Made by a program: the position numbers and the translations under genes. This document shows, one piece after another, positions 12,562 through 32,530 of a stretch of 64,000 nt of DNA (position 1 is its first letter; each line of letters starts with the position of its first letter). This DNA comes from a virus. Taxonomy: Duplodnaviria; Caudoviricetes. The stretch is from the IMG/VR virus record IMGVR_UViG_3300014204_000114, positions 64,001 through 128,000 of that record; one strand, given 5' to 3'. A model generated the notes under the pieces. It saw only the letters and a list, made by a program, of their open reading frames with translations, made no database searches and was not told the DNA's origin.

Positions 12562-13539
12562 ATGGAAAGGTTTAAGACATATATTGGATTAGATAAGCTG
12601 GGATACCCGTCTGGATATAAATCAATATTCGACAGGGAAACAGGCATTCATATAAGAGAAGTTGGAGAAGACGGGTTATGCCCCGCGCCTGAAATTGCGG
12701 ATATTGAAATTTCGACTATCTGCTCCAGAGGATGCAAATTCTGTTATAAGGACAATAAATCCAAAGGCGAGAATATGTCTCTCGAAACATTTAAAGATGT
12801 TTTGAGGAAATTCAATCTTGATATCCTAACTCAAATTGCATTTGGAATTGGAGATATAAACGCAAATCCGGATATATGGAAAATCCTGGCTTATACAAGG
12901 TCTAAAGGAATCATTCCGAATATAACGGTTAATCCGGATATAACTCAAAGTGACGCAAATAAATTAGCCAGCCTATGCGGGGCTGTAGCAGTATCTTATT
13001 ACGGCTTAGCAGAGACATTAGAAGCTGTATGTAAGTTGCACGACTCGGGATTGAAACAGGTAAATATCCACGCTTTAGTATCGGAAGAAACTAAAAGTGA
13101 CGTTGAGCTTTTATTCGAAAGGTCTAAATATGTACCGGAGTTAAACGCAATTGTATTACTTGCTTTAAAGCCTAAAGGTCGCGGCGTAGCATTCACCCCT
13201 CTAAAAGGATTCGGATGGTATAAAAGAAACTTCGAAGGAGCTAAAAAGTATAATATGGGTCTTGGGATGGATACATGCTCGGCATGCAGATTTAAAGCTG
13301 AAGTAGACGACCCTTCATTGGATAGCATAATCGAAACATGCGAAAGCACTTTAGCTTCTATTTATATAGATGTTAAAGGAGTAGCTTATCCATGCTCATT
13401 TAGCGTAGGAAAAATACAAGGGCAGAATCTTCTAAATGAACGGACTGATGTAAGCGATATCTGGAGATCCGATATCTTCAAAGCGTTCAGGAGAGAATTG
13501 AGACTAACAAGAGGCAAATGCCCTATTTACGATATATAA
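12562..13539 (+). CDS. Radical SAM protein with C-terminal SPASM/Twitch-like domain
   Basis: CSRGCKFC (CX3CX2C); C-terminal CES...IDVKG.AYPCSF...CPIY. Confidence 0.9.
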   Translation: MERFKTYIGLDKLGYPSGYKSIFDRETGIHIREVGEDGLCPAPEIADIEISTICSRGCKFCYKDNKSKGENMSLETFKDVLRKFNLDILTQIAFGIGDINANPDIWKILAYTRSKGIIPNITVNPDITQSDANKLASLCGAVAVSYYGLAETLEAVCKLHDSGLKQVNIHALVSEETKSDVELLFERSKYVPELNAIVLLALKPKGRGVAFTPLKGFGWYKRNFEGAKKYNMGLGMDTCSACRFKAEVDDPSLDSIIETCESTLASIYIDVKGVAYPCSFSVGKIQGQNLLNERTDVSDIWRSDIFKAFRRELRLTRGKCPIYDI

Positions 13540-18479: not shown

Positions 18480-21400
18480 ATGATCAAAGTAAAATGGGCA
18501 CGACATCATTATCTACACTTATTCTTTATATGGATTTATGTCTTAGTAATTCGTTCATTCTCTCATTTTGCCTTTTGGTGCCAGATAAAATTTGCAGCCT
18601 TTATAAGTACTAAAGGAATCTATTATGGCTATTTTAACCCTGGAGAATTACGTATTGAAGGTAAGAATGTCGATAAATGGAGACTTATAAAAGATGAAGT
18701 AATTTATACTGGTAAATGGGGGAGAGAATTGGGACGTCTGAATGTAAAAGAATTTGATCAAAAGAATAAGGTAGAATAAAATGAAAAAGATAACTGTTTC
18801 AAGATCTGACCGTTTTATAAAAGAGTTTAAGGATATCATTAATTGTCAGTATCCAAGTAGTCAAAGCCCTAGTATGCCTTTGACTTTTAAAGAACATATC
18901 CGACATATACAAAGTCTCATAACAGAAGCTTTCCTGAAAACTATCGACGAACCTATTCTGGACGACGATATGGACGATCTAATTTATTTCTCATTTAAGA
19001 TATTTGATGATAATTTGTGCATCACATTCGATAGCGACTATTTGCAGGGCTATTTTGATGTTGAAAATATAACTATAAGATTATAGGAGAAATTATGAAA
19101 ATTATAGAAGCATTGGAATACTTAGCTGAGAATTGCCATGACTATGAATCAGGTTCTAACTATTTAAAATCAATGTCCAAATACTGTTTAGCCAGTATTA
19201 TATACAAAAACTACAGTATAAACTGTTTTATCAAAAAATAGATAACAAGTTTTTTATTATAGGGCAGTATCATCCGGGACGAAGTATGGAAATAGATCCT
19301 CAGTTTGTATCTAATGTAGCTTGGATTAATAGCCACCATGAGTGTCATAACCTCTCAATTAGCACAGAAGTTACTAAAGCATATCCGCCTCCTTACAGTT
19401 ATAAAGTAATAGGCCAGTCAGGACATTTAGAAAACGTTATACTCTCAGAATATTATTACGTTTACGAGTTCGTAAAGAAGCTAGATCTCCCGCACGAACT
19501 TAACGATTTTAACTGGGATGGTAAGATATTAACCTTCTCTTCCGGAAGAGAACCTATCACTAGACAAACTCTGGAAAAGAAAGGGATCTTTAGCGAAAGA
19601 GACGGAGAGATTAAAGAGAATTACTGCGCTGAGGCATTATGAAAATTATGGAAATAATTGGACACGAAGAAATACCTGAATTAGGCGAAGAGCCTACTAT
19701 AAAACAAGTCGTTAAATACTTACTTGATATTCTTGAAAAATATCAAAAAAGAGGATACGAGGACATCACTTTAAGAGATGATAACGGTGCTGGATTTATA
19801 GTATCGGGGAAAGAAATTGAAAACAAAGATATTTAAATCGTTCGAAGAATTCTTAAAATCTTATTATCCCAAACATCACTGCGACGGATGCAGGTTTTAT
19901 AAAACCAATCCTAACGCGGAGCCATGTACAATCTTAAGCGACAGCCGGCATTATAGGATAATGGGAAACTCCAAAGAAGTAACTGACAAAATGATAGAAC
20001 GCTGCAAAGAGATGAGGTATAAAGAGAAAATATGACAATTACATTAAAATATGTCGTTAGCTGAGGTCCTTATGACAAATAAAATATTTGAAAAAGAAAT
20101 AACAGTAAAAATAAAAATGACCCGTTCTCAGACGAACGTACTTCGTTGCGACGAATGCCCTTTTTATAACGACTTCTTTAACGAGGGTACCTGGAGAACA
20201 GATGAAGAATGCAAATGTCCCGAGAACTACGATTTAGAATTAGAATTTCACGAAGCTCAAAAGAGATGCTTCGAAAGACATTTTAAAAATACCAATAAGT
20301 AAGGAGAGAATATGCCAATTGTACTAAAAGGGAAAACGGTTCTGTTAGGAGTTATTGGGGTAGATTCGGGCCAGGTATTAATTTGCGATCCGTGCTATAT
20401 TGATTCAAGTTGGAAAAAAACGGAATACAGAGACGAAGACCCGGACGCAGTTGGAGAATTTTCATATAACGGGTGCTGTAATACTAATGATCCTTTTATA
20501 CGAACTGCCGGCTCGCATCCAGTTGAAAATATAGGACAGCTCGGATTCGACAAGACTTTGGACGGCGCAGGAGTTACCTCTAAAACTATGGTCGGAGACG
20601 GAGTCTATAACGTATATGGAATACTGAATGAGAAGGGTGAAGTAAAAGGCATCTATATAGATTTTGAGGAGCCGGCAGATGTATCAGAGGAATAATCTGA
20701 TTACTAAAGAAGATATACTTTCGGCAAAGTGCAAATATAAGAAGTTAAAACTTATAGAACAAGCCGAATGCGTGAAGTACGGAGGGACTATTGACTGGAT
20801 ACATATATCCTGGAAAGACGAGATAACGTCAATGAAAATAAATAAACATCTTAAAGTTGTTGGGACTCTTCCTCTCGGAGATGTATATAAAGTATACATA
20901 TATCCTTCTATTGATTATAAAGATAGGGGTACTTATTTTTTCTTAGAAGAAAGACTAGATTCAAATAGAGAATCCTGTCAGGGGATTAGAAAAGAGCAGA
21001 TATCATTCGCGGCTTATTATAATATGGATTTTAGAATTATTAACTCTAGATCAAATGTATTAAATAATATCCCTGATATGCCATGGCTTGCCGCGGAGAA
21101 GTATCTTAAAGAGATGTATAACGACTAAGGAGGAGCAAATGTTACTAGTTATTTATACAATTATTTTTATAATAATAACCCTATGTGTAGTTTTCGCGGG
21201 ATTCTTATTTATTATGGGGATAATGTTTGGGATAACAAAGAGAGGGATCGTTTTAACTATTATTAAAGACAATACTTTGGATCCTAAATATTACTCCGAA
21301 TTACTGGCAATCCTAAACAGAGAACTCAAAAATAGTCAGATAATGGAATTTACTAAAAAGATCCCGAGAAAGAGTAAAAATAAACTAGAACAGATAGTTC

Positions 21401-21522
21401 CATTAGTTATGGAGCAATGCAAAGATTTAAGGGCGCATATCTATTATTATAAGATTCAGCCTTTGCTGAAATCAATTGAAGTAAAATACGAATCAATTGA
21501 AAAACCAAATAAGTTAAATTAA
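18480..21522 (+). CDS. Run of small hypothetical proteins, several Cys-rich; 20312-20695 carries a GVDSGQ..ICDPCY motif (DUF4241-like)
   Basis: ORF track, SD sites. Confidence 0.55.
19095..19642 (+). pseudogene. Probable frameshifted gene (or sequencing error)
   Basis: SD-led ORF 19095-19241 stops at TAG, while the frame of ORF 19286-19642 is open from about 19160 and has no SD of its own. Confidence 0.4.
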
Positions 21523-21534
21523 TCGGAGGCAAAA

Positions 21535-23562
21535 ATGTCGATGTATCCTTTTACGTTATTCTTTGAGAAAACATTAAGCGATGAAGATTTCGCAAGCATT
21601 AGTTCACATTTAGAAAGTCTTGACCTTCCTGTTATGCCGTTGATGCTAGAAGAGGGATTAAGCGGTTATGTCATTAATATAACTGACGCCGCGAAAGAAG
21701 AAAAATTAAAAAGAATACTTACTAGTATGGGAGGCTTTGCTAAGTTGTCAGGGATGGCTTACGATGGCCTAATGAGGCTACCTTATGCTTTTGACGCGTT
21801 GATTAAAAGTCAGCTTACGACTCCTGCAGTTCCTGCTATGGAAGACGCGTCCGAAACAAGAAGAAGTTCAGAAGGATGTAACGATGCTCCATGCAGAGGA
21901 TGCGACGCAGAAGAGTGCGAGAATAGAGACGAAGATTACGATGAATATTATGATAATGATAGAGAAAACGAAACCCATAATCACGACGATGATTGCATAT
22001 GTAGATTCTGTGACGAGCCGAATTGCGAAGATAGAGATGAAGAGTTTTTGTGTGGGGGGACTTTAGAAGAATGTGGAGAATGTGATAAAGATTGCCAGTA
22101 CAGGCAAAATGTATTGGCGACTCCTGCCCATCTAACTCCCGAAACCAGAGCTGAAGTAATAGAAGCATTACAAATAGAAATCCCAATAGACGATACTACG
22201 AGAACAGTAAGGGATGGATATTCCGATTTTGCGACAAAGAGCTATAAAAGATATTATAATCCATCCTTAGAATGCGTGAGCCCCACAGGTAATATAGGAT
22301 TATTGCCTTATAGGATGGCTTCCAGATCTCATACGAAAGACGGGCTTAATTTATATTCGAAAGCTATAGCTAAATTGTCCGACGGTGACGGGCCAATGCT
22401 CGTATTTCTTACGAAGTATAGCGATAACGGAGAGGCTCATTGGGAACAGTTGAAGATTATAACAGAAGCTGTCTTAGATGTTATAGAGCCTGCAAAATTA
22501 AACAGATTTAAAACAATATATATATCGGAAACTCATAATTCTGCTCCTATCACTCCGATGGCTATAGACGATAATCTGTATATATGGCTGTGGGCCGATA
22601 TAAAATCCTGTTCCAGCGCAGAGAGGCTAAAATCTCCCGTATATGGGATGACATTAAGAGATTGCGGGATGACAGACCACTTGTCGATATACGATCATAA
22701 TTTGTATGATTATGTGAATTATAGCGACCGATCCGAGGCAATTGCAGGCGTGTCCGGGAATAACATTTATACATTTTTTGACTTGATGCATCCGGACCCC
22801 GAAGGGATTAAAAAGCTTGAATGGAGAAAATCGTATTACGAATTATGGAAAAAGCTTATTCTTGATATGTCCAGCAATATGATGTTAACTCCGGAAGAGA
22901 TATCAAATAAAGCCCAAAAGCAGTTTATCTCTTCTTATAAGAAGTCTATGATCGATTCTATAAACAATTTGAAGAGTGAGATAAGCAGCATATCGCAAAT
23001 AGTCCAGTCTTATGAACGGGATTTTAAAGAGAAGTATTCCGAGATGAAGCAAAAAGAGGATATGCTTTATACTATCGAGGCTAATAAAGACGAAGACAAA
23101 CTGGATTTGAGAGCCCTTGAAATTATAGATATGATAAAAAAGTCTAAGCTTACCAAAAGTGTAGAGTTTGATAAAAGTCAATATCTAATAGTAAATACGA
23201 AAAACATTTTCTGCACCGATCCAAGACAAGGCAACGTCTATGAGCTTGGCGAATTTAAGATTAAGATTCCGTTCAACGGAAAAACTTCAAGCGATATAAG
23301 AATACTGAATCAAACAAGGACGGTGGATGGTTATTGGCACAATCATAATGCCCCGCATGTTGATAATAACGGGAAGCCTTGTTGGGGTTCCGTTGCTATA
23401 GATATGACTAAGGTTTTAACAGAAAAGAAATTCTACGAAGTTTATATGATGTGCCTGGCCTTTTTAGAGACTGTAAACCCGGCTGATTCGGCTGGAGCAT
23501 ACATAGAAAGATGGCCTAAAGTCGAAAGTAAAACTGAAGAAAAAACAGCTGAAGTCGCTTAA
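21535..23562 (+). CDS. Large protein with Cys-rich repeats, coiled coil and C-terminal prokaryotic E2 (ubiquitin-conjugating)-like domain, copy 1
   Basis: ELGEFKIKI...APHVDNNGKPCWGS (PH-x6-7-C E2 signature); adjacent to JAB, ThiF and Ubl genes. Confidence 0.7.
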   Translation: MSMYPFTLFFEKTLSDEDFASISSHLESLDLPVMPLMLEEGLSGYVINITDAAKEEKLKRILTSMGGFAKLSGMAYDGLMRLPYAFDALIKSQLTTPAVPAMEDASETRRSSEGCNDAPCRGCDAEECENRDEDYDEYYDNDRENETHNHDDDCICRFCDEPNCEDRDEEFLCGGTLEECGECDKDCQYRQNVLATPAHLTPETRAEVIEALQIEIPIDDTTRTVRDGYSDFATKSYKRYYNPSLECVSPTGNIGLLPYRMASRSHTKDGLNLYSKAIAKLSDGDGPMLVFLTKYSDNGEAHWEQLKIITEAVLDVIEPAKLNRFKTIYISETHNSAPITPMAIDDNLYIWLWADIKSCSSAERLKSPVYGMTLRDCGMTDHLSIYDHNLYDYVNYSDRSEAIAGVSGNNIYTFFDLMHPDPEGIKKLEWRKSYYELWKKLILDMSSNMMLTPEEISNKAQKQFISSYKKSMIDSINNLKSEISSISQIVQSYERDFKEKYSEMKQKEDMLYTIEANKDEDKLDLRALEIIDMIKKSKLTKSVEFDKSQYLIVNTKNIFCTDPRQGNVYELGEFKIKIPFNGKTSSDIRILNQTRTVDGYWHNHNAPHVDNNGKPCWGSVAIDMTKVLTEKKFYEVYMMCLAFLETVNPADSAGAYIERWPKVESKTEEKTAEVA

Positions 23563-23576
23563 GAAAGGAGTTTAAA

Positions 23577-24233
23577 TTGGACACAATCAGACCAGCAGAG
23601 TGCAGGAATAGGGTTATATTCAAAGGAGAGATCCCTAAAGTCACTATCTCTCCTGAAGTCATAGACGATTTGTCAATTCTGAAACACCAGGTTGACGGAG
23701 AATTTATGTTCGGAATAATGGCGGAATATGTCGATAACGAATTTAAGATCCAGGGGGTGTATATGTTCCCCCAGACGGTTAATTACGCCGGAGTCAAACC
23801 TAAGACCGAAACTACGATAGAGGAACTATTCTTAAGCATGCCTAATGTCCTTGGAATAGGAATCTGCGAAGAAAAAATGGAAGAATGCGAAAAGGATCTT
23901 AAGGATCATATTGAAAAATTAACCGAAAATATCCCGGTCCCATTCGTTTCAATTTATCTGAATTTTAAAGGCGAATGTCAGGTAAACGCTCATAACTTCG
24001 ACATGTGGGAATTTAAGGATCTTAAGTGGAAATTCCCGACAGTTGTAGATGCTGAAGAAAGAAGAGCTTACTGGGAAAATCAAATTAAAGAGCATGTAGG
24101 GTCCTTCGCTTATCACTATAGCTCGAATCCAATTGGAGGACCAGCATCATGCGGGGCGTCTGCGGAAGCGTATAAAAATGCATTCCCCGGAGCTGCAGAT
24201 GATGAATGTCCTACAGGATTTTATGGGATTTAA
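23577..24233 (+). CDS. JAB/MPN-like protein, predicted catalytically inactive
   Basis: Aligns with the N-terminus of 30382-31503 (I.P....D..I....  E ... F.I..V..P.Q) but lacks HxH...D. Confidence 0.55.
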   Translation: MDTIRPAECRNRVIFKGEIPKVTISPEVIDDLSILKHQVDGEFMFGIMAEYVDNEFKIQGVYMFPQTVNYAGVKPKTETTIEELFLSMPNVLGIGICEEKMEECEKDLKDHIEKLTENIPVPFVSIYLNFKGECQVNAHNFDMWEFKDLKWKFPTVVDAEERRAYWENQIKEHVGSFAYHYSSNPIGGPASCGASAEAYKNAFPGAADDECPTGFYGI

Positions 24234-24242
24234 GGAGAGAAA

Positions 24243-24926
24243 ATGATTGAGACTATGAGACATGTCGCCGTAATTGATCTTGAGCACTCTACAGCCAAAG
24301 ACACAGCTATACATGTGATAGGCTGCGGAGCTTTAGGGTCAAGAGTAGCTTTGGGATTAGCCAAATTAGGCGTTAGTAATATGCATTTATGGGACTTCGA
24401 CAAGATCGAGAGTCATAATATAGCGAATCAGGCATACGGGATTTTGGATGTAGGAAGATATAAAGTAGAAGCTCTCGCAGGGCTGATAGCGAGACAGACC
24501 GGCTTAAAGACCGTGCCTCACCCGGAAAAAGTCGTGAATCAACATTTGTTTGGTTTTATTTTTCTTTTACCTGACTCTATGGAGTCAAGAAGGGAGATTT
24601 GGGATGAGAGCATTAAGTGGAAAGCTGTCGCCTTATTTGAAGGCAGGATGGGCGTATCTGAAGGAAGGGTTTATTACGTTAATCCAAAGGATCCTGTTCA
24701 CATTAGTAAATGGGAGTCTACCCTTTGTCTTGACTCCGAAGCTGAAGATTCTGTTTGCGGTTCTCACATTGCTGTTGGACCTACAGCGGAATTTATCTCC
24801 GCGCTTATGCAATGGCAGTTCATTAAGTATATAAACTCTTTGGAGAAGCCTAGAAAAGTGGAAAATGAGATTATAGCGTATGTAGATCCGCCGCTATATC
24901 TGATGAATTGCTGGAATAATCAATAG
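24243..24926 (+). CDS. ThiF/E1-like adenylyltransferase, copy 1
   Basis: VIGCGALGS, DFDKIESHNIANQ, G..KVEA, candidate catalytic Cys in SVCG. Confidence 0.9.
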   Translation: MIETMRHVAVIDLEHSTAKDTAIHVIGCGALGSRVALGLAKLGVSNMHLWDFDKIESHNIANQAYGILDVGRYKVEALAGLIARQTGLKTVPHPEKVVNQHLFGFIFLLPDSMESRREIWDESIKWKAVALFEGRMGVSEGRVYYVNPKDPVHISKWESTLCLDSEAEDSVCGSHIAVGPTAEFISALMQWQFIKYINSLEKPRKVENEIIAYVDPPLYLMNCWNNQ

Positions 24927-24958
24927 TAAACTAATAACCAATATAAAGGAGAATTAGA

Positions 24959-25384
24959 ATGGTAACAGTAAAAATGGCAAAGCTTCCTGGTGAGTCGAAG
25001 GAATATCTTTTCGAAGACGGTACCACGTTAGCTAAGGCGCTTGCTACGGCAGGTCTTGATTCCACTGGATATCAGGTCCGCGTATCCGGCACGCTCGTTG
25101 AAGGCGCTTTCGATGAGTTGGAAGTTGAGGATGGCGACAGCGTAATGCTTGTCAAGCCGATCAAGGGCGCTCAGGACTACATCGAAGTCAAGATTGCCAA
25201 GCTTCCTGGCGAACTTAAAGCGTTTTGCCTCAACGGTGACCGCAAGGTTCGGACTCTTATCGCTACCGCAGGATTGACCCTCGGTACCTGCAAAATCCGC
25301 ATCAACGGATTGGAAGGTGATATTGACGATGAGCTGGAAGACGGGGATACGGTAGTCCTCGTAAGTAATATCAAGGGTGCGTAA
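24959..25384 (+). CDS. Tandem two-domain ubiquitin-like (ThiS/MoaD beta-grasp) protein
   Basis: Two ~70-aa repeats VK.AKLPGE.K...L.DGD.V.LV..IKGA; codon usage distinct from neighbours. Confidence 0.85.
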   Translation: MVTVKMAKLPGESKEYLFEDGTTLAKALATAGLDSTGYQVRVSGTLVEGAFDELEVEDGDSVMLVKPIKGAQDYIEVKIAKLPGELKAFCLNGDRKVRTLIATAGLTLGTCKIRINGLEGDIDDELEDGDTVVLVSNIKGA

Positions 25385-25392
25385 TTCCCGAC

Positions 25393-25415
25393 TGTTTTGT
25401 TTTGTTTTGTTTTTT
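25393..25415 (+). repeat. (GTTTT)n short tandem repeat
   Basis: tgttttgttttgttttgtttttt directly after the Ubl stop codon. Confidence 0.6.
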
Positions 25416-25433
25416 ACTGAATTAAAATATAAG

Positions 25434-25459
25434 TACAGGGGAAGTTCGCTTCCCCTGTA
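25434..25459 (+). terminator. UUCG-capped stem-loop (terminator or mRNA stabiliser) after the Ubl gene
   Basis: tacaggggaag-TTCG-cttcccctgta, perfect 11-bp stem; only a weak U tract follows. Confidence 0.65.
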
Positions 25460-25482
25460 TCTTAAATATAAAAGGAGGATCC

Positions 25483-25755
25483 GTGGAGGCAAACGAGACA
25501 GTCTTGGAAGAATGTAAGGACTTAAAGATAGTAGAGGAGCTCAAGGCGCGTGTGGAAGCTAATGAGAAGACATTAAAGATAATAAATGAGGGGATGAAAA
25601 ACCTCATGGTTATTTGCATGAAAGTATCAGCTTCTACAGGAGCCTTGGTGAGTGTACTGAGCGAGGAAGAGTTGGAAATTTTCAAAAAGACATACGACAA
25701 AATAATAGAATCTTCCGCGAGCAGTTTAAGTTCGGAAAAGCGCGATAACGCGTGA
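25483..25755 (+). CDS. Hypothetical protein whose stop codon is supplied by the IS right end
   Basis: AGGAGG SD; TGA lies within the GTGA element end. Confidence 0.6.
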   Translation: MEANETVLEECKDLKIVEELKARVEANEKTLKIINEGMKNLMVICMKVSASTGALVSVLSEEELEIFKKTYDKIIESSASSLSSEKRDNA

Positions 25756-26912
25756 TTATTCTATTACGAAAAGTAATAGTTTTTAGGCTGAAGCCAAAGA
25801 CTGTAACCCCAGTCTTAAAATATTTATCGCTGCGTTGTGGTCTCTATCAAGAGATAATCCGCAGCAAGGACAATTATGAGTTCGATCAGAAAGTTTTTTA
25901 AGGACTTTATGACCACAAGAAGAACAAATTTGGGATGTATAAGCGGGGTTGACCAGGATCAATCGTTTATCGGCGCATTCTGCCTTATAAGCAATGAGTC
26001 TGGTAAATTGTCCCCAAGCTACATCAGAAATACTTTTGTTAATGCAAGTATGAGTATGGACCATTTCGTTAATAGACAAATCCTCCATACAGATCGTGTC
26101 GAAAGACTTTACTATACTATTACTCTGTTGATGGGCAAAGTTATTGCGTTTATTAGAGATTCTTTCATGGATCTTAGCTACAACTTTCCTGGCTTTAGCT
26201 CTCTCAGGAGTGCCTTTATTAAGCTTAGAAAATTTTCTTTGAGCTTTAGCCAAAGATTTTTCTTCGTGTTTAAAGAATCTGGGGTTATCAATCTTGACAC
26301 CGTCAGAGAGCGTAGCGAAAGATTCAAGACCCACATCTATACCGACAGATCTGCCGGTTTTAAGAAGTGGATTTTTCTCGACAATACAAGAAAAAGTGAC
26401 ATACCACTTACCAGTAGTAGACTTTTTTATACAGCAAGTCTTAATTTGACCTGTGATATTCCTATGGAGTTTGATTTTGATAGTGCCGATTTTAGAGAGT
26501 TTGAGCCCCTGTTCAGTAATCTTAAAACCGAACTGAGGGAAAGAGAAAGAGTGGTACCTGTTAAACCCTTTAAATCTTGGATAACCCGGTTTATCTCCAG
26601 CCTTAATCCTTCTAAAGAATGCTTTGAAAGAAAGATCGAGCCTAACAAGAACATCCTGAAGGACTTGAGAATGAATATTTTTAAGACTACTTCTCAGCTC
26701 TTTAGTCTCTACAAGAAAAGAGTTTTGGGCATAATAACTCAAACTTTTATTTTCGATTTCCCAACATTTTTTACGCTGTTCAAGAAAGTAATTATACAGC
26801 CAGCGGCATTCTTCAAGCCACATATTCATAATGTGAGTTTGTTTGCTCGTTGGATATATACGGAATTTATATGCTTTAAGCATAGTTATAGTATGCGCTT
26901 AAAAAACAAGAT
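25752..26912 (-). mobile_element. tnpB-only IS200/IS605 (IS1341-like) element
   Basis: Right end hairpin ctattac-ttttc-gtaatag followed by aataaTCAC (- strand); left boundary inferred at TTGAC 26913-26917; no tnpA. Confidence 0.75.
25783..26883 (-). CDS. tnpB: RNA-guided endonuclease TnpB
   Basis: AYKFRIYP, PGYPRFK, GIDVG / MEDL / DRDHNAA RuvC residues intact, zinc ribbon. Confidence 0.95.
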   Translation of the reverse strand: MLKAYKFRIYPTSKQTHIMNMWLEECRWLYNYFLEQRKKCWEIENKSLSYYAQNSFLVETKELRSSLKNIHSQVLQDVLVRLDLSFKAFFRRIKAGDKPGYPRFKGFNRYHSFSFPQFGFKITEQGLKLSKIGTIKIKLHRNITGQIKTCCIKKSTTGKWYVTFSCIVEKNPLLKTGRSVGIDVGLESFATLSDGVKIDNPRFFKHEEKSLAKAQRKFSKLNKGTPERAKARKVVAKIHERISNKRNNFAHQQSNSIVKSFDTICMEDLSINEMVHTHTCINKSISDVAWGQFTRLIAYKAECADKRLILVNPAYTSQICSSCGHKVLKKLSDRTHNCPCCGLSLDRDHNAAINILRLGLQSLASA

Positions 26913-27012
26913 GTCAATAGTTAGTACGATACAGAAATACAAAAATAGTACCAGAGCTGACATATGATCTATAAAGGTTTTATCACGCCTAAAAGCCTAT
27001 TTAAGTTAGTAA

Positions 27013-27159
27013 ACTCGTCTGTATGAGAGTCTCTAACGGGATGCAAGTTGTCCATTTGCCTATGGCAGTATGTACACATTCCCGGCGTTTATAATGTAAG
27101 TAACGAGTCTCCTCCACAAAAAGCCGAGGTCTGGATTCGCTCCTCCGCCGGACCTCGGC
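27013..27159. ncRNA. Candidate structured non-coding RNA followed by a GC-rich hairpin
   Basis: Nested pairings actcgt/acgagt, cgggatg/cattcccg, tgcc/ggca; 12-bp hairpin 27123-27159. Confidence 0.35.
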
Positions 27160-27178
27160 CCACCTTTATCATTAATTA

Positions 27179-28751
27179 TTGGAAGAAATAACTATGTTAA
27201 AATATATACCTGATGAAATTTTTGATTTAGAACATATCCCTGCTAATATGAATATTAGTATTGAAGACAAAGGAGAATCTCTTTTAGCTGTAAATGATAA
27301 TCCTAATCAAGGCTTTCCGTCCAGAGTTCTTATTTACACATGTGTACCTTATGATTTTTCTCATAAGTATATAAGTGCGGCGGGAATAAGTTATTCTAAG
27401 AAAGGGAAGTTTCATAGAGAAAACGGTCCGTCTTGTATATTAATGAAAAGGGTTTTATTCCTTACTCCTGATATGGTACCTGCTGAAATTCATAATAAAA
27501 TATCAATTAAAGTCCCTAGAATAGGAGCGTTTATCGAATGCTCAAAATCGTTATACGCTAGTAATAATTGTGTTTACGTTAATTATAATAATTATTCGCA
27601 GAAAGTTCAAGACTGGTGGCTGGATCCAAAATATGGGCTTTTGGGAAAATCAAAATTAGTTGTAACGGAAATGGGATGGTATTCAAACGGAAGACTGAAT
27701 AATGCGAATGGCCCTGCGAAAATAACTATGAATTTCAACCCTGACGATACTTTCAGCCCATACTATCTTTCGGCTAATCCTCCATCCCCGCCAAGAGCCG
27801 ACAAGGTTTATTATTTAAACAACAGATATTTAGGTTCGGGAGAATCAGGAGAAATAAATTGGAAAAGCAAAATATAGTTATTAAAATAGATACCGACGAA
27901 TTAAAGAACATAATATTCAATAGAATTACCGCGAATCCAAAATTCATGGCGGCAATATTAGGTATTAAAGAAGAAGAAATAATACTGCACGACGAGATCT
28001 ATCTCAAAATATCTCCTGAAAAACTAACTGACATTTTTAATTCTGAAGAAATCGACCCATTATTAGAATGGGCGGCTATAGCATTTCTGGAAGAAGATGA
28101 GAACGGATTAAAAATTGACGAATCGAATATAACAGTAGAAGAGTATTTGTTTGGGAATCTATGAAAACAGTAAAATTACCATATTCGTTTTTAAATAGCT
28201 GTATTGATATACAGAATTATCCCGGCAGACCTACTAAAGGACTTCTAATTCCATGCCCAGAATGCGGCAGACTAGTAGTCATAGAAATGCATTTTTCGGA
28301 TTATAGTTTCACCGATTTTGCTAACGATATATCTTTGGATGGCAGTCGCGTATCTGACATAATGTGGGAACATAATATAGGAATACCGTCCGATGTCGCA
28401 AAATTATTGGATATTGACGAGGATTCTTTTAACGATCTCGCGCTTAAAAAACCTTATTATGAAATAGTAGACGGAACAATATATTTCAAAATCAGATGTC
28501 ATAATGCTCTATTTAACGGTTCCGGGAAAAGACTTATAACTTTGGATCGCGAAGATGACAATTATAGGGATAGAGGCACGTTAGAAGAATTATGGAGAGA
28601 CCACGATTTAGGAAGATATTATTCGTGTAATCAAATGTTTAAAGTGGAATTTGCTTTAGGCCCAGACGAAATGATATTCCCGGATTTGATTAAACAACTA
28701 AATAATCTAAATGATGAATTAGACAATTTTATAAATTTGACGGAATTATAA
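27179..28751 (+). CDS. Three hypothetical proteins: 27179-27877 (HRENGP/NNANGPA repeat motif), 27859-28164, 28161-28751 (CPEC zinc-binding)
   Basis: ORF track; motifs as stated. Confidence 0.6.
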
Positions 28752-28760
28752 GGAGGAGAA

Positions 28761-30359
28761 ATGTATCTTAATCTTGAAACTCTCGTAAACGAACTAGGAA
28801 GAACGTGGGGATTTTACGTAAAAATATCAAGTGAAAGTTTCGGCACTACTATCAAAACTAGAAATAAACTTCATGACAAAGGTATCATATCAACTGATTT
28901 CTATCATAGCGAAGGAGATTACGGGCTTTTGATGGACGCCGAGAATTTGATTAAGCTTGAGACTCTTTATGGAAGAGCGGAAGTGACAGGACTCGTATGT
29001 CCTCATTATGAGAATATGATAGAAGTCACTTTAAGCTCTCCTGTCCTTGATGCTATATTGCCCGAACAAACAGAATTAATAGTAGATTTACTAACGGCAG
29101 ATATCCTACCTAAAAAGAAAAAGCCTAAGAAGAAAACCGAAGATGATATAACAGGAACTGCCTCTTCAGAGTTAGAGTTTTTACTAAAAGATGAAGAAGT
29201 TGTGTCTCTCCTAAAGAATATAACGAAATCGCTAAAGCTTAATGAGTTTTTAGTAAGCAGAACTATCATAGACTGTTCTATCGAAGACAGATTTACAGTC
29301 CTCATAGGATCTTATCAGGATGATTCCCCAATGGGTTATAATAAATTCTCGTGCGGATCTTTTGATAAGATAAAAAGCCCTTCCAGTATGTATCTGTATC
29401 TTGATACGGGATACGATAGAATTTACGATGTTGTATTCAAGGACTACGCGGGAGTTCCATTCGCAGGTTCTCATAGAGAAATCCACGCGTTATACCTGTT
29501 TTGGAACATATTTGATCAGGTAGAGCGTATTGATAGTAGAAACGAAGCTAAGCTGAATGATTTTAGAAAGAAATACATCACTGAAATACTTAAAAGATTC
29601 GATTTATACTTGACTGACCAAAAAGAGTATGCTAAGAAATATGAGAATAATGGTAAGTCTCTGAAGATGTCAGAATCGGCAGTAAAAGATATTTATAATA
29701 AGGCGGGGAAGACCGAACTTAAGAAAGCTGAATTAATAGTTAAATATGGAACTCAGATTATAGATAAAATTTATTTACAGTTACACAAATACGAACAAAT
29801 GGTGATAGCCGCAGGCGAAAAGGTAAAAATGTTCAGAGAAAATGATAGTGAAGAAAAATTTACACAGAGATATAGGAAAGAATTAGAATTAGTTAATAAG
29901 AATTCAAAAGTACTCAATGCTGCTATTTCTGAAAATCAATTAATAATTCATACGGATATGTTATATTGTGAAAATCCGCAGACTCATAAAGTTCACGAAA
30001 TAGGCAAATTTATCATAATGTTCGAGTTATCGTTAATGACCGGAGGAGATAACGAAGGTCTAGTAAAGTGGATTAATGTAACTCATAAAATAAAGGGATT
30101 TAGCAATCAGTTTATGAACGCTCCTCATATATTTAATGATGGACATGCATGTCTCGGATCAATAGCGGGAACATTTTCTAAATTATTAAATAATCATGAG
30201 ATAGCATCTGCTGTTGATTTAGCAATCCAATTTGTGGAAAGCGTAAATCCGGTGGATGCGGCAGGATCATTTATAGGGAATTGGCCGATAGTAGAAACGG
30301 AGAAGAAGAATGAAGAAACTAGGGAAGAGACGGAAGCAGAACTCGCAGAAACAGCGTAA
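28761..30359 (+). CDS. Coiled-coil protein with C-terminal prokaryotic E2-like domain, copy 2
   Basis: EIGKFII...APHIFNDGHACLGS...VNPVDAAG..I.NWP, clearly paralogous to the C-terminus of 21535-23562. Confidence 0.7.
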   Translation: MYLNLETLVNELGRTWGFYVKISSESFGTTIKTRNKLHDKGIISTDFYHSEGDYGLLMDAENLIKLETLYGRAEVTGLVCPHYENMIEVTLSSPVLDAILPEQTELIVDLLTADILPKKKKPKKKTEDDITGTASSELEFLLKDEEVVSLLKNITKSLKLNEFLVSRTIIDCSIEDRFTVLIGSYQDDSPMGYNKFSCGSFDKIKSPSSMYLYLDTGYDRIYDVVFKDYAGVPFAGSHREIHALYLFWNIFDQVERIDSRNEAKLNDFRKKYITEILKRFDLYLTDQKEYAKKYENNGKSLKMSESAVKDIYNKAGKTELKKAELIVKYGTQIIDKIYLQLHKYEQMVIAAGEKVKMFRENDSEEKFTQRYRKELELVNKNSKVLNAAISENQLIIHTDMLYCENPQTHKVHEIGKFIIMFELSLMTGGDNEGLVKWINVTHKIKGFSNQFMNAPHIFNDGHACLGSIAGTFSKLLNNHEIASAVDLAIQFVESVNPVDAAGSFIGNWPIVETEKKNEETREETEAELAETA

Positions 30360-30381
30360 GCCAAGAAAAAGGAGGACAAAA

Positions 30382-31503
30382 ATGGTAGATCATGCGCCGC
30401 ACAATTTCGAACCCAAGTTTAAATACGATCAGGTATTTAAAATTTTTATAACTCCGCAGGCTATGGCGGACATGTCTTTAATAGTCGATATATGTACTGA
30501 AGAAGTAGGATGGATGGGATATGTAGAAAGAAGAGGAAACGATTTTATAGTATATGATGTTTTCGTCCCTAAACAGAAAGCTTCATCCGTATTATGCGAA
30601 TTAGACTTTACTGCACTGGCTGAAGTAGGAGAAGCTTTAATACAAACTCCGGACGGAATAGCGAAATATAACCAAATGAGATTCTGGGGCCATTCCCATC
30701 ATACGATGGGGACAAGTCCTTCAGGTCAGGACGATATCCAATTAAGAGAATTCGACGCGTGCGAATGGTTTATCAGAGGAATCCTGAATAAGCATGGAAG
30801 AATGGAGTTGACTTTATACTTCTTTAAGTTAGGGTTAGAGATAAGAGACGTCCCGTGGCAAATATATTATGAGCCCAATCCGTCCAAAGTCGAATATTGG
30901 GAAAGCGAAATAGAGAAGAATGTCGAAGTGACTAAGTACGTGGCTGAGACAAGATGGAACGGGACCGAATGGCATAAGGAATGGAATCAGAACTGGAGAA
31001 CAAATTACAAAAAAGACAAAATCGACCAAAGAGATATAGGATTCAGAGCGCCTAATAAGACCGCACGAAACATTCACGAATACTTCAAAGAGAAAGTTCG
31101 GGAAGATAATAAGGATGTACTTAGCGATATAGAAAAGAATACGGAAGAGGCTTTAAGAGCAGCCGCGGATATAGCCATGGGCAGAAAGGCAAAAAGCAGT
31201 AGTATATCCTGTAAAGTCGAAGTTATGGATGCGTCCGTAGGTAAAATTTTGCACAAAACCGATTGTAGTGTCCCGGATGATGGATGGGACATAGAGATGC
31301 TGGTTGACACTTTCTATAGTCATTTGTCTCAAGCGATGTACAATGACGGATTATCTTTTATAAGAAAGATACAAGGTATAGGATGGGAACCGGTTAAGGG
31401 CGGATATAAGATTGAAGATAAGGACGTGCTTGTAATAATCATAGAGGATTTATTAATGAATGCAAAATTAATCGAGGATATTAAAACCGAGGCTGCCTTA
31501 TGA
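30382..31503 (+). CDS. JAB/MPN+ metalloprotease (Ubl-processing/deconjugating type)
   Basis: EVGW ... WGHSHHTMGTSPSGQD (E, HxH, S..D); AGGAGG SD before ATG 30382. Confidence 0.85.
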   Translation: MVDHAPHNFEPKFKYDQVFKIFITPQAMADMSLIVDICTEEVGWMGYVERRGNDFIVYDVFVPKQKASSVLCELDFTALAEVGEALIQTPDGIAKYNQMRFWGHSHHTMGTSPSGQDDIQLREFDACEWFIRGILNKHGRMELTLYFFKLGLEIRDVPWQIYYEPNPSKVEYWESEIEKNVEVTKYVAETRWNGTEWHKEWNQNWRTNYKKDKIDQRDIGFRAPNKTARNIHEYFKEKVREDNKDVLSDIEKNTEEALRAAADIAMGRKAKSSSISCKVEVMDASVGKILHKTDCSVPDDGWDIEMLVDTFYSHLSQAMYNDGLSFIRKIQGIGWEPVKGGYKIEDKDVLVIIIEDLLMNAKLIEDIKTEAAL

Positions 31504-32159
31504 TAGAAATCCTGAGACATATGGAAGTATTCAATCCTGATAATTTTACGGACAACGTACATATTATCGGCTGCGGATCCATAGGCTCTAATATAGCTTT
31601 GAGTATGGCTAAATTAGGTATCCCGGGGGATCAGATAACAGCATATGATTTCGATAAGGTAGAGGAGCATAATATTGCGAATCAGGCATACGCCCTAAAA
31701 CACATAGGCTGGTCTAAAGTAGATGCTTTATTCGATCAAATCAAATATTATACAGGAGAGGAAATAGACATTCGGGAAGAGAGAGTAGAAGATAAAGTAA
31801 GGCTAAATGGAATAGTCTTTCTGGTTACAGATACGATGAAATCCCGGCGGGAAATATTTAATTCCTGTATCAAGATGAAAATGGCTGTTAAATTGATGAT
31901 CGAAGTCAGAATGGATGCGGCTGAAGGGAGAGTCTACACTATTAACCCGATGTCTTATTCCGAAACGAAGTTCTGGGAAGACGTCTCGCAGTACACTGAC
32001 GAACAGGCCGTAACCTCAGCGTGCGGACATACCACTACTGTGGGTTCTACAGTCGGAGTCCTATCCAACTTAGCAGTTTGGCAGTTTATAAACTGGTTTA
32101 ACAAAAAACCTTTGAAAAATGAATTGTTCATAGGCCTTGAAAATATGGCCTTAAATTAA
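31500..32159 (+). CDS. ThiF/E1-like adenylyltransferase, copy 2
   Basis: IIGCGSIGS, DFDKVEEHNIANQ, SACG. Confidence 0.9.
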   Translation: MIEILRHMEVFNPDNFTDNVHIIGCGSIGSNIALSMAKLGIPGDQITAYDFDKVEEHNIANQAYALKHIGWSKVDALFDQIKYYTGEEIDIREERVEDKVRLNGIVFLVTDTMKSRREIFNSCIKMKMAVKLMIEVRMDAAEGRVYTINPMSYSETKFWEDVSQYTDEQAVTSACGHTTTVGSTVGVLSNLAVWQFINWFNKKPLKNELFIGLENMALN

Positions 32160-32186: not shown

Positions 32187-32528
32187 ATGGCAGACAAACA
32201 GTGGAGCTTTAGTAAAGCGCAAGTGTGGCTGAATAAGGCTAGCGACAGCAAGAAGCTCGGTAATGGTACTATGGTTATGAACGACACAATCGTTTTGACC
32301 TTCAACATCTTTGTGGGAAAAGATGACAGTATATTCGCCGCGCCGCCGAGTTTCAGCTATGAGCCTAAAGAAGGCGGAGAGAAGAAATACAAGGACCACT
32401 TCTATTTCCTCGTTCCTGAAGCTAGAGTAGACTTTAATGCGGCTGCATGCGAAGCATACGAAACCGCAAAGAAGACTCCCGCTGCGCCTCCCAGCCGTCC
32501 CGGAACAGCAAGAACCTTTAAGAGGTAA
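32187..32528 (+). CDS. SpoVG-like nucleic-acid-binding protein
   Basis: Pattern of beta strands, G....FAAPPS, Y.D, terminal helix ending EAY matches SpoVG. Confidence 0.65.
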   Translation: MADKQWSFSKAQVWLNKASDSKKLGNGTMVMNDTIVLTFNIFVGKDDSIFAAPPSFSYEPKEGGEKKYKDHFYFLVPEARVDFNAAACEAYETAKKTPAAPPSRPGTARTFKR

Positions 32529-32530
32529 CA

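What the first reader, a model, noticed from the sequence alone, without database searches (positions are those of the whole stretch)
21535..32159. Phage-encoded, duplicated ubiquitin-like conjugation pathway (E2-JAB-E1-Ubl and E2-JAB-E1)
Seen in sequence: two cassettes with identical gene order. Cassette 1 is 21535 (E2-like, APHVDNNGKPCWG), 23577 (JAB-like without HxH), 24243 (ThiF), 24959 (di-Ubl). Cassette 2 is 28761 (APHIFNDGHACLG), 30382 (intact JAB, HSH..SPS..D), 31500 (ThiF). No thiamine, molybdopterin or tRNA-thiolation genes are nearby. Established knowledge: E1+E2+JAB+Ubl operons define bacterial protein-conjugation systems, including the anti-phage Bil systems. Inference: here the phage owns the pathway. 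The two cassettes share one Ubl and one active protease, while the unrelated large N-terminal regions of the two E2 proteins may select different substrates, as built-in E3s. Possible roles are tagging host defence proteins, protecting phage proteins, or decoying host Ubl systems.
Basis: partly seen in the sequence, partly recalled or inferred. Interest (0 to 1): 0.88.

Follow-up and report, generated by a model that had tools for sequence, protein, structure and literature searches.

The report
Doubled ubiquitin-like tagging kit in phage
A 188-kb phage from landfill metagenomes carries two parallel sets of ubiquitin-type enzymes, one trimming protease plus a dead copy, and a two-unit polyubiquitin-style tag gene; the kit belongs to a large family that no database annotates and nobody has tested.

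Summary

- **E1:** both small genes pass Pfam ThiF.
- **Tag:** the 141-aa protein passes Pfam ThiS and is two beta-grasp units.
- **JAB:** gene 30382 has the JAMM fold (Foldseek E 1.5e-8 to CSN5/Rpn11) and the full E..HxHx7SxxD motif.
- **Pseudo-JAB:** the 218-aa protein is its homolog without the metal ligands.
- **E2:** the C-terminal ~150 aa of both large proteins fold like UBC/E2, with invariant His and Cys, yet match no Pfam model.

The four parts co-occur in about 30 other loci, in large phage contigs and in Melainabacteria and Saccharibacteria genomes. The E2-like domain has 3,123 representative clusters.

Corrections:
- It is not Bil, Bub, CBASS or PRTRC by their defining features.
- It is not phage-only.
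- The single Ubl gene is a polyubiquitin-like precursor. Relatives have 2-3 units, each ending G|N. So each module may have its own tag.
- The two modules are old paralogs.

Conjugation itself and the targets are untested. The scan has noted other, PRTRC-like phage Ubl cassettes on other DNA.

The parts
21535..23562 (+). E2-1, 675 aa. It has a unique N-terminal region (aa 1-357, with a Cys-rich acidic stretch at about aa 113-190), a loosely conserved middle domain plus coiled coil, and a C-terminal UBC-like domain.
   Evidence: Homologous to E2-2 over aa 358-666. Family HMM E 4e-50. No Pfam, PHROG, PADLOC or NCBIfam hit.
23125..23559 (+). UBC/E2-like domain of E2-1 (aa 531-675), with motif NAPH608..G.PC616.G.
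   Evidence: Aligned in A2 with invariant Cys and His. The fold evidence comes from the paralog's model.
23577..24233 (+). Pseudo-JAB (MPN-minus-like), 218 aa, TTG start with an AAAGGAG Shine-Dalgarno.
   Evidence: hhalign to the family JAB profile: probability 94.8%, E 5e-8, with the HxH..S..D segment missing. It is the only one of 30 JAB-family members without the ligands. Shine-Dalgarno.
24243..24926 (+). E1-1, 227 aa. A single ThiF-type adenylation domain with GxGxxGS and Cys172 in the family's SaCG motif.
   Evidence: Pfam ThiF 3.8e-18. Family alignment.
24959..25384 (+). Di-Ubl precursor, 141 aa. Unit 1 is 24959-25168 (ends IKG70, then AQD). Unit 2 is 25172-25378 (ends IKG140, then an A cap).
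   Evidence: Pfam ThiS 8.5e-6, over the cut-off. The two halves match at E 9e-17. Both units span the full family Ubl profile.
25434..25459 (.). 11-bp-stem hairpin just after the Ubl gene; likely the end of the module-1 transcription unit.
   Evidence: Consensus scan only.
28761..30359 (+). E2-2, 532 aa. It has a unique N-terminal region (aa 1-196), a middle domain plus coiled coil, and a UBC-like domain.
29883..30320 (+). UBC/E2-like domain of E2-2 (aa 375-520), with NAPH456..G.AC464.G and the E493..N496..D499..G502..W508-P509 tail.
   Evidence: AF2 model pLDDT 89. Nearly all top Foldseek rows and most top VIA rows are UBC/E2-superfamily chains. Atlas TM 0.51-0.52 to UQ_con and Prok-E2_D clusters, against 0.34 or less for unrelated folds. 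The UBE2W active site is the best PDB sequence match.
30382..31503 (+). Active JAMM/MPN+ peptidase, 373 aa, with E41, H104-S-H106, S114 and D117. About 170 aa at the C-terminus are unique to this phage.
   Evidence: Motif. AF2 model pLDDT 88. Foldseek E 1.5e-8 to CSN5, Rpn11, the Caldiarchaeum Rpn11 homolog with ubiquitin, PfJAMM1-SAMP2 and BubCD. Shine-Dalgarno.
31500..32159 (+). E1-2, 219 aa, ThiF-type, with Cys175. Its start overlaps the JAB stop (ATGA).
   Evidence: Pfam ThiF 1.3e-18. 43% identical to E1-1. Alignment A4.

Best explanation
The region encodes a self-contained ubiquitin-like protein-conjugation system of a large family that has not been annotated.

Inferred sequence of events:
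1. The di-Ubl precursor is cut by the JAMM peptidase after each IKG. This removes the Ala cap and separates the two units.
2. A small, probably homodimeric ThiF-type E1 adenylates the exposed Gly, and may hold it on its conserved Cys.
3. The Ubl passes to the invariant Cys of the UBC-like domain of a large E2.
4. The E2's own N-terminal and middle regions select the target. No E3 is present.
5. The same JAMM can also reverse the mark.

This phage has two such E1-E2 modules and two diverged Ubl units. I think they form two partly separate tagging routes fed by one precursor. The metal-less JAB paralog would act as a non-catalytic partner or Ubl binder.

Shown here: the identity and fold of the four part types, their conserved residues, and their fixed co-occurrence.

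Inferred: every chemical step, and the pairing of tags with modules.

On the role, my low-confidence guess (about 40%) is that host proteins are tagged during infection. Tagging of the phage's own proteins, or of competing phages, comes next.
For: - E1: Pfam ThiF over the cut-off, twice. There is an invariant GxGxxGS, ETRMG and one invariant Cys across 26-30 family members.
- Ubl: Pfam ThiS over the cut-off. In 29 of 31 family Ubls the last Gly is followed by Asn (Ala and Gln in the other two). In 29 this is a 1-3-residue C-terminal cap, and in two a longer C-terminal extension follows the Asn.
- Poly-Ubl: ten loci have 2-3 head-to-tail units, 75-100% identical. Every unit keeps the G|N site. 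That is what a cleavable precursor should look like.
- JAMM: fold match E 1.5e-8 with 196 PDB hits at E 1e-3 or better, including JAMMs solved with ubiquitin or SAMP2. The full motif is present in 29 of 30 members. Fifteen of 26 members hit Prok-JAB weakly.
- E2 fold: model pLDDT 89. Nearly all of the top 50 Foldseek rows and most of the top 50 VIA rows are UBC, UEV or RWD chains, including the bacterial CdnG-E2, Cap2 and BubCD. In the Atlas search, E2 clusters sit at TM 0.51-0.52 and unrelated folds at 0.34 or less.
- E2 residues: His and Cys are invariant in the long E2s. They are lost in the short E2' paralogs beside them, as in UEV proteins. The two best PDB sequence hits are UBE2W's active site with the same His-Cys spacing.
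- Synteny: E2, JAB, E1 and Ubl sit together in about 30 loci from at least six phyla and from phage contigs.
- Real and intact: contigs from runs of other studies bridge the layout. Strain differences keep the frames open: 5 synonymous and 3 non-synonymous codon changes plus an in-frame 6-nt insertion in E2-1, and 10 synonymous and 8 non-synonymous in E2-2.
Against: - No biochemical evidence exists for any member of this family.
- Each E2 structural score is modest on its own (best Z 6.6, best Foldseek E 0.015). No sequence model of any E2 family matches.
- The UBE2W alignment is not significant alone (E about 0.9).
- I could not show that the E1's Cys corresponds to the ThiF or Uba catalytic Cys.
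- A capped ThiS-like protein, a JAMM and an E1 also make up known sulfur-carrier pathways.
- The near-invariant Asn after the Gly could point to a different C-terminal chemistry.
- The pairing of Ubl units with modules, the role of the pseudo-JAB, and the targets are guesses.
Confidence: 0.72

Rival explanations
1. Sulfur-carrier pathway. The Ubl is uncapped by the JAMM, adenylated by the E1 and converted to a thiocarboxylate that donates sulfur to a small molecule or a tRNA. From my own knowledge, not checked here, this is how CysO-Mec-MoeZ and QbsE-QbsD work. The large proteins would be scaffolds.
For: The best family names are ThiS and ThiF. A capped Gly plus a JAMM plus an E1 is exactly the known sulfur-carrier trio. 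One related locus (L003) has a PP-loop ATPase about 4 kb downstream.
Against: The whole phage genome has no ThiG, MoaE, rhodanese or PP-loop ATPase. The E1 has no rhodanese domain. The large protein with a UBC-like fold and invariant Cys and His is always present. Repeated poly-Ubl genes and E2/UEV-like pairs have no place in a sulfur relay.
Confidence: 0.07
2. MccB-like C-terminal Asn chemistry. The unit keeps its terminal Asn, and the E1 converts it through a succinimide into a nucleotide-linked or otherwise activated end, instead of making a Gly thioester.
For: Asn follows the Gly in 29 of 31 family Ubls. MccB is the best PDB match of the E1 profile (E 1e-10).
Against: The MccB match covers only the generic nucleotide-binding half. 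The E1 lacks MccB's N-terminal peptide-clamp region, being only about 220 aa long. The residues after the Gly vary (N, NA, NC, NK, NHS, Q). In this phage the residue is Ala in both units. An active JAMM is always present.
Confidence: 0.04
3. The same conjugation machinery, but serving as a phage-borne defence against competing phages (superinfection exclusion) rather than as a tool against the host. It would work like Bil, which tags a rival's virion protein.
For: The distribution in cells is patchy, as for accessory or defence systems: 6 of 121 and 5 of 121 sampled genomes. The known bacterial relatives of this kind act in antiphage immunity (PMC11601596; 10.1101/2023.09.26.559546). Strain differences cluster in the E2 N-terminal regions.
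Against: There is no defence-island context in the window, and no PADLOC hit except the generic E1 region. In Melainabacteria the cassette is tied to a ClpB/ClpC-like unfoldase rather than to known defence regulators. None of this excludes the idea.
Confidence: 0.15
4. Module 1 is a decaying duplicate. Only module 2, with the active JAB, works. The dead JAB marks the beginning of gene loss.
For: The module-1 JAB has lost all metal ligands. Both window E1s sit on long branches.
Against: E2-1 and E1-1 keep every invariant residue. The only Ubl gene lies in module 1. The module-1 frames are intact in three other samples, with 5 synonymous against 3 non-synonymous changes and an in-frame insertion. 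The pseudo-JAB keeps a strong Shine-Dalgarno and an open frame.
Confidence: 0.06

Closest known systems
BilABCD (Bacterial ISG15-like) antiphage systems, types I and II
   Same: The four-part set is the same: Ubl, E2, JAB/JAMM peptidase and E1. There is no E3, so the E2 is thought to pick the target. Type I Ubls have two beta-grasp domains. (PMC11601596; 10.1101/2024.11.21.623966)
   Different: [quoted passage not shown] Here the E1 is one ~220-aa domain. The E2 here is a C-terminal domain of a 400-900-aa protein. No PADLOC model matches the E2, JAB or Ubl. The Ubl here is a cleavable multi-unit precursor rather than one two-domain protein. The system is carried by a phage.
Operon type 6d of Iyer, Burroughs and Aravind 2006. 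Earlier notes of this scan equate it with the PRTRC cassette, which I did not check.
   Same: Separate genes for Ubl, JAB, E1 and an E2-like protein, with sporadic and mobile distribution (PMC1779556). The E1 gives a weak PRTRC_ThiF hit. A Prok-E2_D Atlas cluster is a structural neighbour (TM 0.52).
   Different: PRTRC_ThiF scores 27-43 bits against a cut-off of 144.75. None of 21 E2 domains hits Prok-E2_D or any Pfam E2 model. The 6d E2 lacks the classical His and has a His after the Cys. This family has an invariant His 8 residues before the Cys and none after.
Eukaryotic ubiquitin system
   Same: UBC-fold E2 with a His/Asn-flap-Cys active site. Polyubiquitin-style head-to-tail precursor with a one-residue cap. 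Inactive E2 paralogs beside active ones, as with UEV/Mms2-Ubc13. An MPN+ with an MPN- paralog, as with Rpn11-Rpn8 and CSN5-CSN6. JAMM fold match.
   Different: The E1 is a minimal ThiF-like domain without UFD or Cys domains. The Ubl is ThiS-like by sequence. There is no RING or HECT E3. The unit spacer is 3-12 residues rather than none.
Bub (6E) and type II CBASS Cap2/Cap3
   Same: Bacterial E1/E2/JAB machinery. Structural hits to BubCD and Cap2. The E1 region matches PADLOC Cap2 models.
   Different: Bub uses Ubl-E2 or E2-E1 fusions, oxyester (Ser) intermediates and a DUF6527 protease (PMC11601596). CBASS fuses E1 and E2 and conjugates a CD-NTase rather than a Ubl. Here the genes are separate, the Cys is invariant and a Ubl is present.
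Sulfur-carrier trios with a capped carrier (CysO-Mec-MoeZ; QbsE-QbsD). From my own knowledge.
   Same: A ThiS-like protein whose Gly is capped, a JAMM that uncaps it, and a ThiF-like E1.
   Different: No sulfur-acceptor enzymes are present. The E2-like protein is obligatory and the carrier genes are repeated.

Membership tests
E1 / ThiF-MoeB adenylation superfamily | Rossmann-type ATP-binding domain that scores over Pfam ThiF's gathering cut-off | tested here: met
   65.9 and 67.4 bits against 28.1. GxGxxGS is invariant.
E1 / ThiF-MoeB adenylation superfamily | Catalytic Cys in the crossover loop (needed for a thioester-forming E1) | tested here: inconclusive
   One Cys is invariant in 26-30 members (E1-1 C172, E1-2 C175). 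PDB profile alignments stop before it, so equivalence to the ThiF or Uba Cys could not be shown.
UBC / E2 superfamily | UBC fold (beta-meander followed by helices) | tested here: met
   Model pLDDT 89. The top rows are overwhelmingly UBC, UEV or RWD chains, best Z 6.6 and Foldseek probability 0.93. Atlas TM 0.51-0.52 to E2 clusters against 0.34 or less for others. Each score is modest; the consistency is the evidence.
UBC / E2 superfamily | Catalytic Cys downstream of an HPN-type flap | tested here: inconclusive
   Invariant H-x7-C. It aligns to UBE2W PHVYSNGHIC, with the Cys on the catalytic Cys, but at E about 0.9. It is lost in the E2' paralogs.
UBC / E2 superfamily | Match to a sequence model of an E2 family (UQ_con, Prok-E2_A to E) | tested here: not met
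   None of 21 members hits at E up to 1.
JAMM / MPN+ metallopeptidases | MPN fold and the E..HxHx7SxxD metal site | tested here: met
   Gene 30382: fold E 1.5e-8 and a complete motif. Gene 23577: homologous but the motif is absent, so it is MPN-minus-like.
ThiS/MoaD-type beta-grasp Ubl | Pfam ThiS over the cut-off and a C-terminal Gly | tested here: met
   26.7 against 22.5 bits. The Gly ends each unit and is capped by Ala.
BilABCD | [quoted passage not shown] | tested here: not met
   The E1s are 219-240 aa with a single domain.
BilABCD | BilB/CEHH-type E2, BilC and BilA sequence families | tested here: inconclusive
   No PADLOC or NCBIfam hit for the E2, JAB or Ubl. I did not confirm that those libraries hold Bil models.
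Bub (6E) | Ubl-E2 or E2-E1 fusion, Ser instead of Cys, DUF6527 protease | tested here: not met
   The genes are separate, the Cys is invariant, and no cassette protein has such a Pfam hit.
Type II CBASS (Cap2/Cap3) | E1-E2 fusion next to a CD-NTase | tested here: not met
   Only the ~70-100-residue nucleotide-binding part of the E1 matches Cap2 models. There is no fusion and no CD-NTase hit among the proteins scanned.
PRTRC / operon type 6d | PRTRC_ThiF over the NCBIfam cut-off; Prok-E2_D-type E2 with a His after the Cys | tested here: not met
   27 and 43 bits against 144.75. No Prok-E2_D hit. The His lies before the Cys.
Sulfur-carrier pathways (thiamine, Moco, tRNA thiolation) | Acceptor or sulfur-transfer enzymes alongside | tested here: not met
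   No ThiG, MoaE, rhodanese or ATP_bind_3 in the 99%-complete phage genome.

The most novel reading that the evidence does not exclude
The phage runs two separate ubiquitin-like tagging routes from one polyubiquitin-style precursor. Each diverged Ubl unit is matched to its own E1-E2 pair. An MPN+/MPN- JAB pair processes and reads the tags. The tags are placed on host proteins to hand them to host AAA+ unfoldases or proteases. That would be a phage-encoded, eukaryote-like 'ubiquitin-unfoldase' takeover system. Its cellular cousins in Melainabacteria, which carry E2/UEV-like pairs, poly-Ubl genes and an adjacent ClpC-like gene, would be a bacterial analogue of ubiquitin-dependent proteolysis.
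Probability: 0.12. Interest if true: 0.92.

Novelty: new variant of a known kind. Interest (0 to 1): 0.74.

Why it matters
Bacterial ubiquitin-like conjugation has so far been characterised as a host weapon against phages (Bil, CBASS, probably Bub). Here the virus carries the complete machinery, in two modules.

The family behind it is large: 3,123 representative clusters for the E2 domain alone. It cannot be found by annotation, because its E2 domain matches no Pfam model, and in the cultured-phage records I checked the related E1s are labelled 'thiamine biosynthesis protein'.

It shows several features usually taken as eukaryotic:
- polyubiquitin-type precursor genes with a one-residue cap;
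- active and inactive E2 pairs;
- in this phage, an active and inactive JAMM pair.

If conjugation is confirmed, it opens a testable question: what does a phage tag, and why does it need two routes? It would also widen the known prokaryotic roots of the ubiquitin system.

Distant relatives in cultured Xanthomonas and Flavobacterium phages may make experiments possible.

Tried and rejected
- **Complex prediction** (E1 dimer + Ubl unit 2 + E2 domain): no verdict. Score 0.35 against a control at 0.20. This is evidence neither way.
- **Sequencing runs:** no RNA holder listed, so nothing can be said on expression.
- **Deposited phage genomes:** megablast of the region and tblastn of the E2 domain found no match.
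- **Pattern scan of viral contigs:** only one locus. The method used one peptide pattern, so this says little about prevalence.
- **N-terminal region of E2-1:** no Pfam, PHROG, NCBIfam or Atlas look-alike.
- **Neighbouring genes:** 20312-21522, 25483-25755, 27179-28751 and 32187-34037, the two E2 N-terminal regions and the JAB's C-terminal extension have no homolog near the cassette in any other fetched locus. I do not count them as parts.
- **E1 tree:** the two window E1s sit on long, unresolved branches. In-lineage duplication and double acquisition cannot be told apart.
- **E1 Cys:** profile alignments to ThiF, MoeB and Uba5 end before the invariant Cys.
- **Cultured-phage neighbours:** profile comparisons were weak. 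The Xanthomonas phage 892-aa protein against the E2 profile gave E 0.011, probability 4%. The FpV4 423-aa protein against the JAB profile gave E 0.002. The FpV4 420-aa protein and the Xanthomonas phage 140-aa '..SGG' protein gave nothing.
- **Literature:** five full-text searches found no paper describing a phage-encoded E1/E2/JAB/Ubl set or this family. The Aravind-group jumbo-phage survey does not mention one. The library is partial, so absence of a paper is not proven.

Full report
**Setting.** The window is bases 64001-128000 of a 187,794-bp IMG/VR virus record rated 99% complete. It also carries RecA, a ribonucleotide reductase and a split DnaE with inteins, and a radical-SAM gene. All genes of the finding lie on the + strand and are tightly packed.

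**The observation.**
- E1: both small E1 genes pass Pfam ThiF and are 43% identical.
- Ubl: the 141-aa protein passes Pfam ThiS. It consists of two units, 44-45% identical, each ending IKG followed by Ala.
- Large proteins: they are homologous over about 310 C-terminal residues (25% identity, E 3e-24), and their N-terminal regions are unrelated.
- Starts: strong Shine-Dalgarno sequences support 23577 (TTG), 24959 and 30382.
- Inventory: the phage genome holds exactly two E2-like domains, two JAB-family genes, two E1s and one two-unit Ubl gene.

**The E2-like domain.** No Pfam, PHROG, PADLOC or NCBIfam model matches either large protein. A word-index search found 20 homologs. Their alignment shows a conserved C-terminal domain of about 145 residues with invariant Cys403, Cys464, Gly, Asn, Glu, Asp and Trp-Pro, and near-invariant His456, in the motif NAPH-x3-G-x-A-C-x-G.

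An AlphaFold2 model of this domain is confident (pLDDT 89).
- Foldseek against the PDB gives no hit at E 0.001 or better, but nearly all of the top 50 rows are ubiquitin-conjugating enzymes (best E 0.015, probability 0.93).
- The independent all-against-all aligner gives Z 6.6 to 4.4, mostly to UBC, UEV and RWD chains. These include the bacterial CdnG-E2, Cap2 and BubCD.
- Against ESM Atlas models, the family's own, mostly viral, clusters come first (TM 0.77-0.80). UQ_con (0.51) and Prok-E2_D (0.52) clusters follow. Unrelated folds score 0.34 or less.
- A profile search of all PDB sequences returns UBE2W's active-site segment as its two best hits. There PHVYSNGHIC aligns to the family's PHV-x3-G-x-x-C with identical spacing. 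At E about 0.9 this is not significant alone, but it agrees with the folds. It places the family's His at the Asn position of the HPN motif and its Cys on the catalytic Cys.

I conclude that the fold is UBC-like. The catalytic reading is likely but unproven.

**The peptidases.** The protein from 30382 and its relatives carry E-V-G-W ... W-G-H-S-H-x7-S-x2-D/E. Fifteen of 26 members hit Pfam Prok-JAB, all below the cut-off. The model (pLDDT 88) matches CSN5, Rpn11, the Caldiarchaeum Rpn11 homolog bound to ubiquitin, PfJAMM1 bound to SAMP2, and BubCD, at E down to 1.5e-8.

The 218-aa protein from 23577 aligns to the family profile (hhalign probability 94.8%, E 5e-8), with the metal-binding segment missing. 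Among 30 family members it is the only one without the ligands. The MPN-minus-like copy is therefore peculiar to this phage.

**A conserved cassette.** In contigs that carry homologs of the large protein, the order E2-like, sometimes a second E2-like, JAB, ~230-aa ThiF, small Ubl recurs. I built HMMs for the four parts and scanned 36 fetched loci. Every locus with enough flank has all four.

The loci come from:
- large phage-like contigs (97-226 kb, and one IMG/VR contig of 207 kb);
- MAGs of Melainabacteria/Obscuribacterales, Saccharibacteria, Flavobacteriaceae, Parcubacteria, Thermoanaerobaculia and a gammaproteobacterium.

One Saccharibacteria copy lies on a 1.2-Mb contig about 5 kb from rpoB, with an ABC-transporter gene on the other side, so it is cellular. 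One 7.6-Mb Melainabacteria genome has eight E2-domain genes at three loci. Sampling gives 6 of 121 and 5 of 121 genomes in the two classes, which is a patchy distribution. An exhaustive HMM search finds 3,123 representative clusters at E 0.001 or better and 464 at 1e-30 or better. The nearest Atlas clusters are 53-100% viral.

**Residue patterns.**
- Long E2 proteins keep the His and Cys without exception. The ~290-aa E2' genes that follow them in most Melainabacteria loci have lost the His and usually the Cys. This is the pattern of UEV proteins beside active E2s. Both window copies are of the active type.
- All E1s keep GxGxxGS, ETRMG and a single invariant Cys in an SaCG motif.
- Family Ubls end in Gly followed by Asn in 29 of 31 cases, sometimes with one or two more residues. 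The window has Ala and one locus has Gln.

**Polyubiquitin-like genes.** Ten loci encode two or three head-to-tail Ubl units that are 75-100% identical. Every unit, internal ones included, ends RG|N or QG|N followed by a 3-12-residue spacer. Keeping the cap site at every junction is what one expects if the JAB cuts there. The window's gene has the same layout (IKG|AQD... and IKG|A), but its units have diverged to 45% identity.

The four loci with a three-unit gene of two unit types and enough upstream sequence (L017, L019, L026, L029) each carry two E2+E2' pairs. This is why I think the window's two units may serve its two modules, rather than one Ubl being shared. That is inference.

**Known systems.**
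- Bil E1s are multidomain, and Bil is defined with its own E2 family (PMC11601596; 10.1101/2023.09.26.559546). Here the E1 is a minimal domain.
- Bub uses fusions, oxyesters and a DUF6527 protease (PMC11601596).
- CBASS fuses E1 and E2.
- Iyer and colleagues' type 6d has the same gene set, but its E2 has the conserved His after the Cys (PMC1779556).
- PRTRC_ThiF is hit far below its cut-off, and no Prok-E2 model is hit.

So the system works like these pathways but is a member of none that I could test.

**Rivals.** A sulfur-carrier reading fits the ThiS, ThiF and JAMM trio. It does not fit the obligatory E2-like protein, the repeated tag genes, or the absence of any sulfur-transfer partner in the phage. 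An MccB-type Asn chemistry is suggested by the conserved Asn and by MccB being the E1's top PDB match. However, that match is generic, the cap varies, and this phage uses Ala. Decay of module 1 is unlikely, because all its catalytic residues and frames are kept, also in other samples.

**Reality of the layout.** Contigs of runs from other studies (landfill 2019 and 2022; groundwater 2022) hold the stretch. One contig covers 23559-29525 with no difference, and another covers 22437-28498. Both bridge module 1, the TnpB element and the start of module 2.

The differences listed in the three runs that differ from the window all lie in two patches: E2-1 aa 262-468, which also holds an in-frame two-residue insertion, and E2-2 aa 24-59. 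There they are 5 synonymous against 3 non-synonymous, and 10 against 8. The E1, JAB, pseudo-JAB and Ubl genes show none.

**Age of the two modules.** The E1 tree leaves both window copies on long, unresolved branches outside the clade of 23 other E1s. Each is about 50% identical to Melainabacteria E1s but only 40-43% to the other window copy. The modules are old paralogs or separate acquisitions.

**Function.** Nothing here shows what is tagged. Three hints:
- the E2s' unique, strain-variable N-terminal regions;
- a ClpB/ClpC-like double AAA+ gene directly after the E1 in eight Melainabacteria loci;
- the absence of any such gene in the phage.

I commit, with low confidence, to tagging of host proteins during infection.

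**Earlier notes of this scan.** These report other phage-borne Ubl cassettes with polyubiquitin-like tags on other DNA and name PRTRC/6d as closest. I tested that membership here and it is not met. The kinship of those cassettes to this family remains open.

Noticed in passing
window 25783-26883 (- strand): A TnpB/Cas12f-like gene (OrfB_IS605, Cas12f1-like_TNB and HTH_OrfB_IS605 domains) sits between the two modules. It is present in the contigs of all the independent runs that cover it. A 39-nt piece at 25798-25836 also occurs in much deeper, unrelated contigs (depth 49-146 against about 7), so it is a repeat shared with other genomes.
   Followed up: partly
L015, L016, L017, L028, L029, L033, L037, L038 (directly downstream of the E1 gene): A ClpB/ClpC-type double-AAA+ gene, 48-73% identical across loci, lies immediately after the E1 in eight Melainabacteria/Obscuribacterales cassettes. 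This suggests a link between Ubl tagging and an unfoldase. L006/L007 have an AAA gene upstream and ClpP nearby.
   Followed up: partly
L011, L017, L019, L021, L025, L026, L029, L032, L034, L035 (Ubl genes): Bacterial polyubiquitin-like genes. They hold 2-3 head-to-tail Ubl units, 75-100% identical, each ending ...G|N with a short spacer.
   Followed up: yes
L010:10293-11105 and L018:9784-10398: In Saccharibacteria the Ubl unit (ending KIKG|N) is at the N-terminus of a 204-270-aa protein. About 130-190 further residues follow, which is reminiscent of ubiquitin fusion proteins.
   Followed up: no
Most Melainabacteria loci, e.g. L004:10320-11183 and L017:8367-9227: A second, short (~290 aa) E2-like gene follows the long one. 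It has lost the His and usually the Cys, making it a UEV-like inactive paralog.
   Followed up: yes
L039 (Xanthomonas phage PhiXhv-12, 143445-144128) and L040 (Flavobacterium phage FpV4, gp50): Cultured phages encode short E1s that match this family's E1 profile (E 6e-40 and 3e-32). They are annotated as 'thiamine biosynthesis protein'. Neighbours show a PH..G.lCLG motif (892-aa protein) and a complete HSHx7SxxD (423-aa protein), but with weak statistics.
   Followed up: partly
window 22320-22938 and 28830-28937: The differences listed between the window and three other metagenome runs all lie in the N-terminal or middle parts of the two E2 genes. One is an in-frame GACGGT insertion after 22380. 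The rest of both modules shows none.
   Followed up: partly
window about 21870-22105 (E2-1 aa ~113-190): An acidic stretch with three four-Cys clusters (C-x4-C-x2-C-x4-C, C-x-C-x2-C-x4-C, C-x6-C-x2-C-x3-C). It may bind metal and has no homolog that I could find.
   Followed up: no
window 43214-45583 and 55829-58663: The ribonucleotide reductase large subunit and a DnaE fragment both contain intein-splicing domains. A radical SAM/SPASM gene lies at 12562-13539.
   Followed up: no
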